From Lysobacteraceae bacterium (GTDB taxonomy: Bacteria; Pseudomonadota; Gammaproteobacteria; Xanthomonadales; Xanthomonadaceae), in contig JAGWUF010000001.1 in NCBI GenBank assembly GCA_028868545.1, positions 26,204 to 90,203 of the forward strand: 64,000 nucleotides of DNA. The letters run 5' to 3'. This document shows, piece after piece, positions 3,110 to 38,459 of this stretch (positions within the stretch are counted from its first letter, which is position 1; every line of letters starts with the position of its first letter). The notes below the pieces were generated by a model. It worked only from the letters and a program-made list of their open reading frames with translations, ran no database searches and had not been told where the DNA came from. A program made the position numbers and the translations under genes.

Positions 3110-3547
3110 ATGGCACAGCCCAACAAACCCTCTCTTCCGCTGATGCTGGCCGGTGCGGCCGTGGCGGCGGGTGCACTGTTCTCGATGCAGGCAATGGCGC
3201 ACGGCTATCTGCAGGACAGCGGCCAGGCCAAGCCCACCGCCAGCGAAGGCAAGTGCGGCGAAGGCAAATGCGGGGCGGGAATGAAGCAAGGCAAGGCACC
3301 GGCGAAGAACGCCAATGCCCCGGCTGCGCATCACGCATTCGGTGACCTCGACACCGACAAGGACGGCCGCATCTCGCGCAGCGAATTCGCCGCCGCGCAC
3401 GGCGGCAAGGACACCATGTTCCCGAAGATCGACAGCAATGGCGACGGCTTCATCAGCAAGGAAGAATTCGATGCCCACCATGCCGCCATGGGCAAGGCCA
3501 TGAGCGAAGGCAAATGCGGCGAGGGCAAGTGCGGCGGCAAGATGTAA
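3110..3547 (+). CDS. Secreted HvfA-like RiPP precursor (four EGKCG motifs) containing two EF-hand loops
   Basis: Signal peptide ending AMA; SEGKCGEGKCG near both ends; EF-hand loops DTDKDGRISRSE and DSNGDGFISKEE; directly upstream of DUF692 and DUF2063 genes. Confidence 0.85.
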   Translation: MAQPNKPSLPLMLAGAAVAAGALFSMQAMAHGYLQDSGQAKPTASEGKCGEGKCGAGMKQGKAPAKNANAPAAHHAFGDLDTDKDGRISRSEFAAAHGGKDTMFPKIDSNGDGFISKEEFDAHHAAMGKAMSEGKCGEGKCGGKM

Positions 3548-3553
3548 GCCGGC

Positions 3554-4378
3554 ATGGTTGAACCGCTGCCCCAGCGCAGCGCGGGCTTGGGCCTGCGCCG
3601 TGCGCTGCTGGATGAATTGATCGGGGCGCCTGCGGGCGCCTTCGATTTTCTGGAATGCGCGCCGGACAACTGGATCGGCGTCGGTGGCGCGCTCGGCGAG
3701 CAGCTGGAAACGCTGACGGCGCGGTATCCGCTCAGCTGCCACGGCCTGTCGCTGTCGCTGGGCGGCCCCGACCCGCTGGATCAGGCGTTCCTGCGCCAGA
3801 CCCGCGACTTCCTCGACCGCCACCGCTGCGCGCTCTACAGCGAACACCTGAGCTACTGTTCCGCCAACGGCCATCTCTACGACCTGCTGCCGCTGCCGTT
3901 CACCGACGAAGCGGTGACGCACGTCGCCGCACGCATCCGCCAGGTGCAGGACGCGCTGGGCCGCCGGATCGCGGTGGAAAACGTCAGCTACTACGCCGCG
4001 CCCTACCAGCAACTGTCCGAAATCGATTTCGTCGCTGCGGTGCTGGCCGAAGCCGGCTGCGACCTGCTGCTGGACGTGAACAACGTCTACGTCAACGCGA
4101 TCAACCACGGCTACGACGCGCGCGCCTTCATCAAGGCGATGCCGACGCAGCGCATCGCCAGCTACCACGTTGCCGGCCACTTCGACGAAGCCGACGACCT
4201 CAAGATCGACACCCACGGCACGGCGGTGAAGGACGACGTGTGGTCGCTGCTCGGCTACGCCTACGCCAGCCACGGCGTGCGCCCCACCCTGCTGGAACGC
4301 GACTTCAACTTCCCGCCGCTGCCGGTGCTGCTGGACGAAGTGGCGCGCATCCGCGCGCTGCAGGCGGCAGCGCCATGA
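3554..4378 (+). CDS. DUF692-family multinuclear non-heme iron oxidase (MNIO, HvfB/BufB-like)
   Basis: GLGLRR start, [57 protein letters not shown] and LLERD are all characteristic of DUF692. Confidence 0.93.
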
Positions 4379-5124
4379 GCGCGCTGCACGATCAGCTGCA
4401 CGCGCTGGCCGCGCACGTGCGCGACCCGGTCGCGCACGCCGGCCCGCCCGGCATCGAGGATCGGCGGCTGGCGGTCTATCGCGAGCTGGTGGCCAACAAC
4501 CTCGACGGCCTGCTGGCCGGCACCTTCCCGGTGATCCGCAGGACTCTGGGCGATGCCGACTGGCAGGCGCTGCTGCACCGCTTCCTCGTCGGCCACCGCA
4601 GCGAAACCCCGCTGTTCACCCGGCTGGGATTGGAGTTCATCGCCTTCCTCGAAGCCGCGGAAGAGCCCGCGCGGCCGTGGCTGACCGAGCTGGCGCATTA
4701 CGAATGGGCCGAGCTGGGCCTGCAGCTCAGCGATGCCGCGGCACCGCCGCACGTTCCCGACGGCGACCTGCTCGACGGCGTGCCGCTGCTGTCGCCGCTG
4801 GCCTGGCCGCTGGCCTACGTCTGGCCGGTGCACCGGCTCGGCCCGGACTGCCAGCCCGCCGAACCGCCGCCCGTTCCGACGCTGGTGCTGCTGCGCCGCG
4901 ATCCTGGCGGCCGCGTCCATTTCTCGCTGCTGTCGCCGCTGCTGTACCGGCTGCTGGCGCTGATTGGTGCCGACGACGGGCGCAGCGGCCACGCGCTGCT
5001 GCGCCAGCTGGCGGAGGAAGTCGGCCACCCGGATTTCGACGCGTTCCTCGGCGAAGCACTGCCGATGCTGGAACGGCTGCGCGCCGAGGGCGTGCTGCCG
5101 GGCACCGCGCCGCCGACGCGCTGA
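4375..5124 (+). CDS. DUF2063-family MNIO partner protein (HvfC/BufC-like)
   Basis: [13 protein letters not shown]...FPVIRRTLG and [10 protein letters not shown] motifs; ATGA overlap with the DUF692 stop. Confidence 0.88.
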
Positions 5125-5165: not shown

Positions 5166-5858
5166 ATGACCGATACGCAAGATGTACCCGCCTTCGCGGC
5201 GATGGCCGCGCGCTTCCGCGGCTACCTGCCGGTAGTGGTGGATGTGGAAACCGGCGGCTTCGACTGGAACAAGCACGCCCTGCTGGAAATCGCGGCGATT
5301 CCGCTTGAACTGGATGCGGCCGGCCACTACGTGCCGGGCGAAGTCGCGCACGCGCACATCGCCCCCGCGCCCGGCACCAGCATCGACCCGAAGTCGCTGG
5401 AGGTCACCGGCATCAAGATCGGCCATCCGCTGCGCGGCGAGGTGGACGAGCGCAGCGGGCTGGACGCGATCTTCGTGCCGGTGCGCGCGGCGCTGAAGAA
5501 GCACGGCTGCCAGCGCGCCATCCTGGTGGGCCACAACGCCCACTTCGACCTCAACTTCCTCAACGCCGCGGTCGCTCGCGTGCAGCACAAGCGCAACCCG
5601 TTCCACCCGTTCAGCGTGTTCGACACGGTGACGATGGCCGGCCTGGCCTACGGCCAGACCGTGCTGGCACGCGCGGCGATGGCTGCCGGGCTGGGCTGGG
5701 ACCCCAGCCAGGCGCACTCGGCGGTGTACGACACCGAACAGACCGCGAAGTTGTTCTGTGCGATCGCAAATGCATGGCATAGGCCAAATCCCGCAGCGCA
5801 GGGCGGTTCGTCCGCATCGAGCGCGGGGACAATCGGCGCCATGGATGGCGCCGATTAG
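5166..5858 (+). CDS. rnt: Ribonuclease T (DEDDh exoribonuclease) with an atypical C-terminal tail
   Basis: [37 protein letters not shown] and [12 protein letters not shown] motifs. About 25 extra residues follow the NAW terminus I would expect. Confidence 0.95.
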
Positions 5859-5915
5859 CCTACATGGACGTACTTGCGGCGTGTCCCAAGCCGATGTGGG
5901 CGGAGCGCCCTGCGC
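5796..5915. repeat. ~120-bp nested inverted-repeat element (MITE/REP-like or structured RNA) overlapping the rnt 3' end
   Basis: Arms 5796-5819 and 5892-5915 are inverted repeats matching at 20 of 24 positions; GGGACA/TGTCCC inner stem; perfect 12-bp palindrome AATCGGCGCCAT-GG-ATGGCGCCGATT at 5831-5856; GTAG on the minus strand at 5863-5860. Confidence 0.75.
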
Positions 5916-5924
5916 GTAATGGAC

Positions 5925-6194
5925 TCACGCCTGCTTCGCCTGTGATTTCGTCCTGAGCGTCCGCACGATTCCGTAGGCGCTGATCGCCATCCACACGGCT
6001 TCCAGCACGAACACCGACACGTTGAACTTGCCCAGCAGCGACACCAGCACGCCACCGGAACCGAATAGGTTCAGCAACTGATAGACGATGCCGGTGCCGG
6101 ACAGCTTGCCGGCCTGCAGCAGGAAGAACGCCACCAGCACCGCCAGCGTGCCGGCGATGCCTACCCAGTCGTACCACGCCAGATTCAACGCCAT
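5925..6194 (-). CDS. Small three-helix membrane protein (CBU_0592-like)
   Basis: MALNLAWYDWVGIAG..., 89 aa with three hydrophobic segments and a YQLLNLFGS motif; ATG overlaps the rlmB stop. Confidence 0.7.
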   Translation of the reverse strand: MALNLAWYDWVGIAGTLAVLVAFFLLQAGKLSGTGIVYQLLNLFGSGGVLVSLLGKFNVSVFVLEAVWMAISAYGIVRTLRTKSQAKQA

Positions 6195-6940
6195 CACGCG
6201 CTCCTTTGCCGCACGGCCTCGAACAGCGCCACGCCGCTGGCCACCGACACGTTGAGGCTCTCGAAGCCGCCCGGCATCGGGATCTTCACCAGCTGGTCGC
6301 AGTTCTCGCGGGTGAGCCGGCGCAGGCCCTCGCCCTCGCTGCCCATCACCAGCGCCACGTTGCCCTTGAGGTCGATGGCATACAGCGACGCATCCGCCTC
6401 GCCGGCCAGCCCGTAAATCCACACGCCCATTTTTTGCAGATCGCGCAATGTGCGCGAGAGGTTGGTCACGCTGAAGATCGGCAGCGTGTCCGCCGCGCCG
6501 GCCGAGGTCTTGCGCACGGTGGCGTTGACCTGCACCGCCTTGTCCTTCGGAATCACCACCGCGGTCGCGCCCGCCGCCGCCGCGCTGCGCAGGCAGGCGC
6601 CGAGGTTGTGCGGGTCCTGCACGCCGTCCAGCACGAGGATCAGCGCGCTTCCCCCCGCGGCTTCGACCAACCCCGGCAACTCGTGCTCATCCCAGGTCTT
6701 GGCCGCGGCGTAGCGCGCCGCCGCGCCCTGGTGGCGCACCCCGCCGGCCACGCCGTCCAGCGCCTGCTGCGCCACCCGGCGCACGTCGATGTCCTTGCGC
6801 CGCGCCTGCTGTTCGATTTCGACGATGCGCGGATTCTTGCCGCCGGCTTCCAGCAGCACTTCGCGCACGTGTTCGGCGTCGTGCTCCAGCGCGGAAGCCA
6901 CCGCGTTCAGGCCGACGATCCATTGGGAGGATTTGCTCAT
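6194..6940 (-). CDS. rlmB: 23S rRNA (Gm2251) 2'-O-methyltransferase RlmB
   Basis: SPOUT motifs LDGVQDPHNLGACLRSA, GSEGEGLRRLT and ESLNVSVA; RHQG motif; lies downstream of rnr. Confidence 0.96.
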   Translation of the reverse strand: MSKSSQWIVGLNAVASALEHDAEHVREVLLEAGGKNPRIVEIEQQARRKDIDVRRVAQQALDGVAGGVRHQGAAARYAAAKTWDEHELPGLVEAAGGSALILVLDGVQDPHNLGACLRSAAAAGATAVVIPKDKAVQVNATVRKTSAGAADTLPIFSVTNLSRTLRDLQKMGVWIYGLAGEADASLYAIDLKGNVALVMGSEGEGLRRLTRENCDQLVKIPMPGGFESLNVSVASGVALFEAVRQRSA

Positions 6941-9577: not shown

Positions 9578-9662
<85 letters not shown>

Positions 9663-21497: not shown

Positions 21498-21554
21498 CCC
21501 ATGCACACTGCATTGCACTGGCCTCCTGCAACCGGCTGTGGTTCAATGCGCGCC

Positions 21555-21640
21555 ATGAAGCGGGGGTGCCTGGCGTTGCCGGGCTGAGAGAGTCCCTTGG
21601 AACCTGATCCGGTTTGCACCGGCGTAGGGAGCTTGATTCG
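21555..21640 (+). ncRNA. TPP (thi-box) riboswitch
   Basis: GGGGTGC...GCTGAGAG..CCCTTGGAACCTGATCCGGTTTGCACCGGCGTAGGGAG matches the canonical thi-box; AAGC/GCTT P1 stem. Confidence 0.95.
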
Positions 21641-21750
21641 AGCAGTCTGGCCATGCCTGTGCAGGGCCGTGCACATGCCATTGCGCATGTGGATGCCGTG
21701 GCATCGCCTGTTCGCCGTCGCTTCGTCCCCTTTCCCGACGATGGCTGACG

Positions 21751-29248: not shown

Positions 29249-29358
29249 GGTGGCCCCGTCGGCCCCTCGCGACGCTAGGTCGAAAACCCCGCCAGGGCCG
29301 GAAGGCAGCAACGGTATCGACTGACGCGGGTGCCGAGGCCAGCCGGCGGGGCCGCCAC
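29249..29358 (+). ncRNA. ffs: Signal recognition particle RNA (4.5S)
   Basis: Terminal stem GGTGGCCCCGTCGG/CCGGCGGGGCCGCC enclosing the helix-8 motif GCCAGGGCCGGAAGGCAGCAACGGT (GGAA tetraloop, CAG/AGCA loops). Confidence 0.9.
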
Positions 29359-31703: not shown

Positions 31704-31794
<91 letters not shown>

Positions 31795-38382: not shown

Positions 38383-38459
38383 TGGCGGAGTGGACGGGAC
38401 TCGAACCCGCGACCTCCGGCGTGACAGGCCAGCATTCTAACCGACTGAACTACCACTCC
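38383..38459 (-). tRNA. tRNA-Asp (GTC)
   Basis: Minus strand reads GGAGTGGTAGTTCAGTCGGTTAGAATGCTGGCCTGTCACGCCGGAGGTCGCGGGTTCGAGTCCCGTCCACTCCGCCA. Confidence 0.97.

What the first reader, a model, noticed from the sequence alone, without database searches (positions are those of the whole stretch)
5796..5915. ~120-bp nested-stem element supplies the RNase T C-terminus and stop codon
Seen in sequence: 24-nt terminal inverted arms (5796-5819 and 5892-5915; 4 differences, 3 of them G-U compatible), an inner GGGACA/TGTCCC stem, a perfect 12-bp palindrome (5831-5856), and an unpaired core AGCCTACATGGACGTACTTGCGGCG with GTAG on the minus strand. The rnt frame runs into the element and ends at its TAG (5856-5858), adding a low-complexity tail. 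Recalled and needing verification: Xanthomonas genomes carry a multi-copy intergenic repeat with the same core (...CATGGATG...TACATGGACGTACTTGC.GCGTGTCCC...) but different arm sequences. Inference: a conserved loop with co-varying stems suggests a mobile structured element (MITE/REPIN-like, possibly RAYT-dependent) or a structured ncRNA. It is a second case in this window of a repeat drawn into coding sequence.
Basis: partly seen in the sequence, partly recalled or inferred. Interest (0 to 1): 0.62.

Follow-up and report, generated by a model that had tools for sequence, protein, structure and literature searches.

The report
TwoAYGGAY-type folded repeat ending rnt
The 120-base hairpin at the end of the RNase T gene is one of five copies in this genome of a widespread folded non-coding repeat of the known but unexplained "TwoAYGGAY" type, and it supplies the gene's last codons and stop codon only because the original stop was lost.

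Summary
Window 5796-5915 folds into a long outer stem (P1) closing two hairpins (P2 and P3). The rnt frame runs into the element and stops at TAG 5856-5858.

It is not specific to rnt. The genome holds five copies with an almost identical ~60-nt core and unrelated but complementary arms. A covariance model built here finds the element in 35 of 151 genomes of the same family and in 33 of 150 other gammaproteobacterial families, at 1 to 30 or more copies.

Both hairpin loops read A-N-G-G-A-Y closed by a C-G pair. With the very long P1, this is the defining architecture of the TwoAYGGAY RNA motif (RF01731). Rfam's own model does not score these copies, but my model does hit genuine RF01731 members.

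The element behaves as mobile DNA: sites without it, near-identical copy bursts and apparent in-place inversion. It is also constrained on one strand: 54 G·T against 4 A·C mismatches in P1, and a core conserved far above synonymous sites. Dependence on a RAYT transposase is not supported.

The loops match the CsrA/RsmA binding consensus. This is untested, and I put it at about 30%. The RNase T tail is unconserved and probably incidental. This scan has met the same family before on other DNA.

The parts
5796..5830 (+). P1 5' arm. The outer 24 nt (5796-5819) are followed by an internal loop and then the inner GGGAC. In this genome it is read as rnt codons.
   Evidence: The arm sequence differs in every copy but is always complementary to its 3' partner.
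5831..5856 (+). P2 hairpin: AATCGGCGCC / GGCGCCGATT with the hexaloop AUGGAU closed by C-G.
   Evidence: There are compensatory changes at three P2 pairs within the genus and at nine in the class-wide alignment. The loop positions A, G, G, A are invariant.
5856..5858 (+). TAG stop codon of rnt. It spans the last base of P2 and the first two bases of the junction.
   Evidence: The same stop is used in G005 (L126).
5858..5881 (+). P3 hairpin: GCC-UAC[AUGGAC]GUA, a 5-nt bulge CUUGC, then GGC. This is the second AYGGAY loop, also closed by C-G.
   Evidence: Compensatory UAC/GUA to UGC/GCA change in L040. Class-wide double changes at P3 pairs. The block is nearly invariant across gammaproteobacterial orders.
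5883..5915 (+). P1 3' arm: GTCCC, an internal loop, then the 24-nt outer arm 5892-5915.
5166..5858 (+). rnt (RNase T, PF00929). The conserved part ends at ...ANAW (about 5777). The last ~25 codons come from the flank and the element.
   Evidence: The exact 230-aa product, tail included, is called in two independent public assemblies.
5925..6176 (-). Convergent downstream gene for a small membrane protein with no Pfam match. The element lies between the two converging 3' ends.

Best explanation
Window 5796-5915 is a resident copy of a dispersed, structured, non-coding repeat. The repeat belongs to the superfamily that includes the TwoAYGGAY RNA motif.

Shown:
- The unit is about 120-130 nt. A 27-34 bp outer stem (P1) of free sequence closes a three-way junction.
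- The junction holds a conserved ~58-nt core with two hairpins (P2 and P3), each ending in a C-[A-N-G-G-A-Y]-G hexaloop.
- Arms and core entered the rnt / membrane-protein spacer together. Relatives with an unoccupied site have only ~10-20 nt there and no palindrome.
- The element has stayed at this locus across much of the genus. It stands in either orientation with the same boundaries.
- In this species and in G005, translation reads ~25 codons through the 5' arm and P2 to a UAG in the core. This gives an unconserved tail.
- Selection acts on one strand. P1 mismatches are overwhelmingly G·T on the strand that carries the AYGGAY loops. The core is 86-97% identical between species whose rnt four-fold sites are 56-75% identical, while the arms drift at about the four-fold rate and stay complementary.

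Inferred:
- The orientation differences arose by inversion through recombination between the arms.
- The ancestral rnt stop codon was lost in this species and in G005.
- The active form is a single strand of that polarity, most likely RNA.
- The two GGA hexaloops lie 23 nt apart. Both match the CsrA/RsmA recognition consensus (A/U)CANGGANG(U/A) and the SELEX ligand RUACARGGAUGU. I propose that they clamp one CsrA/RsmA dimer and that P1 acts as a stabilising scaffold. I put this binding step alone at about 30%.
- The element spreads, or once spread, through an unidentified enzyme that is not RAYT.

The confidence given below covers the identification and the behaviour of the element, not the CsrA step.
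For: - Fold and copies: z = -7.1. Five copies in the genome with different complementary arms.
- Covariation.
- Distribution: 35 of 151 genomes of the family, 1 to 30 or more copies, with over 20 near-identical copies in G155. 33 of 150 other gammaproteobacterial families. The same P3 block occurs in Marinobacter, Spongiibacteraceae and Exilibacterium.
- Link to TwoAYGGAY: the published description (two AYGGAY terminal loops, P1 'often very large, e.g. 24 base pairs') fits. My model R1 hits sequences that pass Rfam's RF01731 threshold (L202, L199) at E about 1e-10.
- Unoccupied sites, both orientations and variable tails at rnt.
- Strand asymmetry: 118 G·T against 28 A·C over 72 elements. With one representative per arm cluster it is 54 against 4, and 23 clusters against 0.
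- Core against four-fold sites.
- Loops: A, G, G, A and the closing C-G are invariant while position 2 takes all four bases.
- CsrA: a csrA gene is present in this genome. All 24 high-quality element-positive genomes of the class sample have csrA, against 82 of 98 element-negative ones.
- Placement: no copy lies in a divergent (promoter-only) spacer, 0 of 36.
Against: - Rfam's RF01731 model gives no hit on these copies even at E<=10.
- No promoter-like site lies near the element.
- In co-directional spacers the element is sense to the flanking genes 10 times and antisense 10 times. The G·T bias persists in the antisense copies. So read-through mRNA cannot be the only selected form, and an ssDNA intermediate would explain the asymmetry equally well.
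- CsrA needs only the GGA loops. It does not explain the ~30-nt invariant P3 block.
- One genome with 23 copies (G285, 88% complete) has no detectable csrA.
- The csrA association is weak: about p = 0.02 by my own hand estimate from those counts, with no correction for phylogeny.
- Copies were found by core similarity, so core conservation is partly a result of how they were selected. Interrupted or decayed copies do exist (G007, G001, G002, G014).
- A September 2026 preprint that discusses TwoAYGGAY at length could not be read. Its text contains neither 'CsrA' nor 'RsmA'.
Confidence: 0.72

Rival explanations
1. The element is a purely selfish DNA element. The two identical hairpin loops and the invariant P3 block are recognition sites for an unidentified transposase or recombinase that acts on a single-stranded DNA intermediate of fixed polarity. 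There is no RNA or host function. The match to the CsrA consensus is coincidental.
For: - Bursts of near-identical copies and composite repeat clusters, with tandem copies of the 3' half alone in G155.
- Patchy distribution.
- Unoccupied sites, inversion and nested insertions.
- The strand asymmetry does not depend on the direction of the flanking genes.
- A 30-nt block is invariant across orders, which is typical of an enzyme recognition site.
Against: - No candidate enzyme was found. Y1_Tnp is absent from three high-copy genomes and is never adjacent to an element.
- No target-site duplication was found.
- Low-copy resident elements at orthologous loci keep 86-97% core identity while their arms drift at the neutral rate. 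That is not expected for dead copies unless they are repeatedly overwritten.
- The free second loop position combined with invariant A, GGA and a C-G closure is a specific fit to CsrA.
Confidence: 0.3
2. The element is a REP or REPIN mobilised by a RAYT (Y1/HUH transposase). On the minus strand it reads GTAG, 4 nt, then the P2 palindrome, as REPs do.
For: - GTAG lies 5' of the P2 hairpin on the minus strand.
- There is a weak antisense match to Ysr224 through CCAUGUAGGC plus a hairpin.
- The location is intergenic, at gene 3' ends.
- This genome has two Y1_Tnp genes.
Against: - No R1 hit lies within 1.5 kb of any of 15 Y1_Tnp genes in 9 genomes, this one included.
- G155 (30 or more copies, 99% complete), G293 (28 copies) and G285 (23 copies) have no Y1_Tnp match.
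- REPINs have conserved arms and a variable centre. This element is the reverse.
- Copy numbers of 1-7 in this genus are far below those of REP families.
Confidence: 0.05
3. The element is a dedicated cis-regulatory or terminator structure of rnt, or a functional C-terminal extension of RNase T that selection keeps for the protein's sake.
For: - Its position at the rnt 3' end.
- The extended ORF is identical in two independent assemblies.
- G005 has the same tail.
Against: - The other four copies lie beside unrelated housekeeping genes: lpd-type oxidoreductase/LOG, an aminotransferase, GH3/PNP, and yidC/mnmE.
- RNase T tails after ANAW run from 2 to 30 residues and are unrelated across 30 congeners. 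Several orthologues with the element in the opposite orientation end at ANAWPR* before it.
- No U-tract follows the hairpin.
Confidence: 0.03

Closest known systems
TwoAYGGAY RNA motif (Rfam RF01731; Weinberg et al. 2010, PMC2864571)
   Same: - Two hairpins whose terminal loops read AYGGAY, enclosed by a P1 stem that is 'often very large'.
- Multi-copy within genomes of Gammaproteobacteria.
- My model built from the present elements hits bona fide RF01731 members at E about 1e-10. One intermediate sequence (L204) carries the same GCCUACAGGGAUGUAUUUACGGCGUG block.
- Function unknown.
   Different: - Rfam's 168-position model gives no hit on these copies even at E<=10.
- P3 here sits on an extra GCC/GGC helix with a 5-nt bulge.
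- Loop position 2 also takes A and G.
- The group found by R1 is wider than what RF01731 detects: 33 against 9 of the same 150 families.
CsrA/RsmA-binding RNAs (CsrB, RsmY/Z; RsmU of Xanthomonas campestris, PMC7694677)
   Same: - GGA is presented in hairpin hexaloops that match (A/U)CANGGANG(U/A). The two sites lie 23 nt apart, which from my own knowledge of Mercante 2009 and Duss 2014 falls within the range bridged by one CsrA dimer.
- Some copies lie in 3' UTRs, as RsmU does.
   Different: - Only two sites per unit.
- No GacA-type promoter, and no promoter of any kind detected.
- Dispersed, mobile and found in either orientation.
- Binding is untested.
- The comEA 3' UTR, which is the RsmU locus, carries no copy in four genomes of related genera or in this one.
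REP / BIME / REPIN elements and their RAYT transposases (PMC3116915, PMC3733652)
   Same: - Short GC-rich palindromic repeats at gene 3' ends that avoid promoter spacers.
- GTAG next to a hairpin on one strand.
- Clustering into mosaic arrays in some genomes (G155).
- Occasionally drawn into coding sequence.
   Different: - Conserved centre with free arms, the reverse of REP or REPIN.
- No RAYT association.
- A three-way junction rather than a simple hairpin.
Yersinia sRNA Ysr224 (Rfam RF02770)
   Same: The Ysr224 consensus aligns with the minus strand of the element through CCAUGUAGGC plus a GCGCC-AUCC-N-UGGCGC hairpin (24.8 bits here and 30.9 bits in L076). Ysr224 may therefore be the antisense strand of a related element.
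   Different: The scores are far below the family's gathering score of 70 bits. The polarity is opposite. This was not examined further.

Membership tests
TwoAYGGAY RNA motif (RF01731) | Two terminal loops carrying AYGGAY | tested here: met
   The P2 loop is AUGGAU and the P3 loop is AUGGAC in the window. A, G, G, A are invariant in 28 genus copies. Loop tallies over 72 elements are.
TwoAYGGAY RNA motif (RF01731) | A closing P1 stem that is often very long (about 24 bp) | tested here: met
   P1 has 24 outer plus 5-6 inner pairs here. The median is 29 paired positions over 72 elements.
TwoAYGGAY RNA motif (RF01731) | Score at or above Rfam's gathering threshold (43 bits) with the RF01731 model | tested here: not met
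   No RF01731 hit at E<=10 in the region or in the whole genome.
TwoAYGGAY RNA motif (RF01731) | Detectable homology to accepted members | tested here: met
   R1 scores L202 (RF01731 43.8 bits) at 52.7 bits, E = 1.6e-10, and L199 (44.6 bits) at 49.9 bits, E = 8e-10. L204 is an intermediate.
REP/REPIN-RAYT system | The cognate RAYT (Y1_Tnp) gene is present and flanked by the repeats | tested here: not met
   0 R1 hits in 15 Y1_Tnp loci with 1.5-kb flanks. There is no Y1_Tnp in G155, G293 or G285 despite 23 to 30 or more copies.
REP/REPIN-RAYT system | Conserved REP arms in inverted orientation around a variable spacer | tested here: not met
   The arms are unrelated between copies and the centre is conserved.
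REP/REPIN-RAYT system | A GTAG (or CGTC) tag next to the palindrome | tested here: inconclusive
   GTAG lies 4 nt 5' of the P2 hairpin on the minus strand. However, it is part of the conserved P3 stem on the other strand.
CsrA/RsmA-binding RNA | GGA motifs in hairpin loops matching CANGGANG | tested here: met
   Both loops match. The closing C-G is 30/30 in the class-wide alignment and 71/72 for P2. Loop position 2 is free.
CsrA/RsmA-binding RNA | Physical binding by CsrA/RsmA | not testable with these tools
   Only indirect evidence: csrA is present in the genome, and it co-occurs with the element in 24 of 24 high-quality element-positive genomes against 82 of 98 element-negative ones.
CsrA/RsmA-binding RNA | Expressed as a discrete RNA from its own (GacA/UvrY-type) promoter | tested here: not met
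   No sigma-70-like promoter in 5500-6300. No conserved upstream sequence among the genus copies. RNA-seq was unavailable.
MITE (non-autonomous DDE-type element) | Target-site duplication and terminal inverted repeats shared with an autonomous IS | tested here: inconclusive
   Direct repeats abutting P1 occur no more often than short chance matches would give (34 of 72 none, 26 of 72 a single base, none above 4 nt). The true element ends are uncertain. No parent IS was found.

The most novel reading that the evidence does not exclude
The TwoAYGGAY superfamily could be a mobile carrier of a two-site CsrA/RsmA clamp. On this reading, a transposable hairpin found in about one fifth of gammaproteobacterial families plants high-affinity CsrA-binding modules in 3' UTRs and gene spacers. 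Resident copies are then kept by the host as CsrA titrators or as recruitment sites for neighbouring mRNAs. That would give this orphan motif a function and add a mobile layer to the Csr/Rsm regulon.
Probability: 0.25. Interest if true: 0.75.

Novelty: new member of a known kind. Interest (0 to 1): 0.4.

Why it matters
TwoAYGGAY has been an orphan motif since 2010. This work adds four points:
- A much larger group of elements in Gammaproteobacteria shares its architecture and escapes Rfam's model. My model finds it in 33 of 150 sampled families, against 9 for RF01731.
- These elements behave as mobile DNA.
- They are nevertheless under strand-specific structural constraint, with a core conserved well above neutral sites.
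- Their loops are an exact fit to the CsrA/RsmA site, which gives a cheap, direct bench test.

For this locus the practical message is about annotation. The last ~25 residues of RNase T here are repeat-derived and should not be read as a functional domain.

Tried and rejected
- Rfam at gathering and at E<=10: only weak, sub-threshold antisense hits to asX3 and Ysr224, and nothing for RF01731.
- Literature search for the core as a text string: only unrelated primers.
- RAYT/REPIN: rejected.
- RsmU, the RsmA-binding sRNA from the comEA 3' UTR of Xanthomonas campestris, as a family member: rejected. No copy lies in the comEA 3' UTR in the five genomes checked. The single R1 hit is about 1.2 kb away.
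- Core inserted into a pre-existing palindrome: rejected for the rnt locus, because unoccupied sites have no palindrome.
- Target-site duplication: none found.
- Own promoter: none found.
- The preprint 10.64898/2026.09.22.753630 mentions TwoAYGGAY 52 times, including in its abstract. It could not be opened. Indirect term counts show no 'CsrA', 'RsmA', 'RAYT', 'IS200', 'bridge RNA', 'tyrosine recombinase', 'RNA-binding' or 'Xanthomonas', and one 'transposase'. Two further searches were wasted on ranking limits.
- Organism name: the tools did not reveal it.

Full report
**1. The observation**

- The sequence at 5796-5915 is as described.
- The 24-nt arms pair with one G·G mismatch and three G·U wobbles.
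- GGGACA (5826-5831) pairs with TGTCCC (5882-5887).
- 5831-5856 is a 10-bp hairpin with the loop AUGGAU.
- The 25-nt 'core' (5857-5881) is unique in the window.
- As RNA, the + strand folds at -84.8 kcal/mol (z = -7.1). The - strand folds at -69.4 kcal/mol (z = -4.3).
- The rnt ORF (PF00929) ends at TAG 5856-5858.
- The 'unpaired core' in fact forms a second hairpin: GCC-UAC[AUGGAC]GUA-CUUGC-GGC.

**2. It is a repeat family with a conserved centre and free arms**

- The genome (2.65 Mb, 117 contigs, 66.5% GC) has five copies of the ~60-nt centre. Each lies between long arms that are unrelated between copies but complementary within a copy.
- Twenty of 24 congeneric genomes have 1-7 copies.
- An alignment of 28 copies (A1) with a hand-drawn three-way structure gives 91% of cells paired and 16 of 31 pairs with changes on both sides. 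It exceeds all 500 shuffles and all slid controls.
- A class-wide alignment fitted to the model (A2) gives 94% paired and 28 of 31 pairs with double changes, including P3 pairs. The C-G pair closing each loop is present in 30 of 30 sequences. Because A2 is fitted to the model, it leans towards the structure.

**3. Distribution**

- The covariance model R1 finds the element in 35 of 151 genomes and 21 of 64 genera of the same family.
- It also finds the element in 33 of 150 other families of the class.
- An exact-pattern scan for the P3 block returned copies in Marinobacter bryozoorum, a Spongiibacteraceae MAG, Exilibacterium and other gammaproteobacterial MAGs. All have long free P1 arms.
- In G155, more than 20 copies share identical 82-nt sequences. 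They sit in composite repeat clusters, each followed by tandem copies of the 3' half alone.

**4. What it is called**

- Two earlier notes of this scan pointed to the TwoAYGGAY motif.
[quoted passage not shown] That fits exactly.
- Rfam's RF01731 model nevertheless gives no hit on these copies, even at E<=10.
- In the reverse direction, R1 hits sequences that pass RF01731's threshold (L202, L199) at E about 1e-10. L204 is a clear intermediate that carries the same P3 block.
- I therefore treat the element as a divergent member of a TwoAYGGAY superfamily that Rfam's model under-detects: 9 against 33 of the same 150 genomes.

**5. Behaviour at the rnt locus**

- Across 30 congeners, RNase T is conserved up to ...ANAW. 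It then carries tails of 2-30 unrelated residues.
- Only G000 and G005 end in the element-derived ...[12 protein letters not shown].
- G189, G003 and G009 have about 10-20 nt between the converging stop codons and no palindrome. The arms therefore arrived together with the core.
- The element is sense to rnt in G000, G005, G023, G001 and G002. It is antisense in G007, G191, G006, G004 and G012.
- Where this was checked (G005 against G004), the boundaries coincide and the arms are homologous at 81-84%. The simplest reading is in-place inversion between the arms.
- The same flip is seen downstream of the lpd-type gene.
- In the antisense species RNase T ends at ANAWPR* before the element. In G005 that TGA has been changed by substitutions.
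- The exact 230-aa product of this window, tail included, is called in two independent public assemblies.

**6. Constraint**

- Between species whose rnt four-fold degenerate sites are 56-75% identical, the core is 86-97% identical. The arms are 47-84% identical.
- In P1, mismatches on the loop-bearing strand are G·T far more often than A·C. The counts are 118 against 28 over 72 elements.
- With one element per arm cluster and the 28 inner columns only, the counts are 54 against 4. Twenty-three clusters lean towards G·T and none the other way.
- A single strand of that polarity is therefore what is being selected.
- The bias also holds in copies that lie antisense to both neighbouring genes.
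- Interrupted or decayed copies exist too (G007, G001, G002, G014). The constraint is therefore not universal, and part of the apparent core conservation comes from how copies were selected.

**7. Context**

- Of 36 copies with both neighbouring genes called by a crude GC3 filter, 16 lie between convergent genes. Ten are co-directional and sense, 10 are co-directional and antisense, and none lie between divergent genes. Orthologous copies are not independent of one another.
- The neighbours of this genome's copies are housekeeping genes: rnt; lpd-type oxidoreductase/LOG; an aminotransferase; GH3/PNP; yidC/mnmE.
- No promoter-like site or terminator flanks the window copy.

**8. Mechanism**

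*RAYT or REPIN.* This reading fails.
- No element lies within 1.5 kb of any of 15 Y1_Tnp genes.
- G155, G293 and G285 have many copies but no Y1_Tnp match.
- No target-site duplication was found.

*CsrA/RsmA.* Both loops are C-[A-N-GGA-Y]-G with a free second position, and the two GGA motifs lie 23 nt apart. From established knowledge of RsmE/CsrA (SELEX consensus RUACARGGAUGU; structural consensus A/UCANGGANGU/A; one dimer bridging two sites), this is an exact fit. P3 in some copies reads UACAUGGAUGUA.
- csrA is present in this genome.
- In the class sample every high-quality genome with the element has csrA (24 of 24), against 82 of 98 without the element. The four element-positive genomes that lack csrA are 67-88% complete.
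- This is a falsification test that the idea passed. It is not proof.
- CsrA does not explain the invariant P3 block, and independence from gene orientation is awkward for a 3'-UTR role.
- RsmU, the known RsmA-binding 3'-UTR RNA of Xanthomonas, is not a member of the family.
- I put CsrA binding at about 30%. I also put at about 30% the rival reading that the core is only a recognition site for an unknown enzyme acting on ssDNA.

**9. Limits**

- No expression data were available.
- The September 2026 preprint with 52 mentions of TwoAYGGAY could not be read.
- Statistics over related genomes overstate independence.

**10. Verdict**

- The RAYT idea is not supported.
- The element belongs to a motif class already described, and this scan has met it before on other DNA.
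- The RNase T tail is an incidental read-through.
- Interest is moderate. It rests on the testable CsrA hypothesis and on the breadth of the superfamily.

Noticed in passing
L109:3000-4100 (G155:C12), and L089-L108: In G155 the element lies inside composite repeat clusters. A conserved ~110-nt upstream module with a T-run precedes it. One to three tandem ~70-nt units follow, each made of the 3' half alone (bulge, junction and 3' arm) plus a tail.
   Followed up: partly
L133:1320-1402 (G001), L112 (G007), L131 (G002); also G000:C45:18171-18220: A different ~50-85-nt palindromic repeat has inserted into the P3 loop, right after CATGG, of the rnt-linked copy in three congeners. Its first ~49 nt recur elsewhere in G000, G001 and G002.
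   Followed up: partly
window 5827-5927 minus strand; L076:1480-1567: Rfam's Yersinia sRNA Ysr224 (RF02770) aligns weakly (24.8 and 30.9 bits) with the antisense strand of the element. Ysr224 may be a transcript across a related repeat.
   Followed up: no
L113 (G190), downstream of rnt: The same rnt / membrane-protein spacer holds a different repeat (CCCTCTCCCTCCGGGAGAGGGG TTGGGGTGAGGG type) in G190. The spacer therefore seems to be a recurrent landing site for repeats.
   Followed up: no
L121 (G014), downstream of rnt: A degenerate remnant, TTGCGGCGTGTGACCCAAGCC, resembles the 3' part of the core and inner arm. It suggests decay of an old copy.
   Followed up: no
window 3110-5124: The genes just upstream of rnt carry MbnB_TglH_ChrH (PF05114) and HvfC_N/HvfC_C (PF09836, PF22106) domains according to the calls in public assemblies.
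   Followed up: no
window 21552-21647, 29256-29352, 9578-9659, 31704-31791, 38386-38459: Rfam hits at gathering score elsewhere in the window: a TPP riboswitch, the small SRP RNA and three tRNAs.
   Followed up: no
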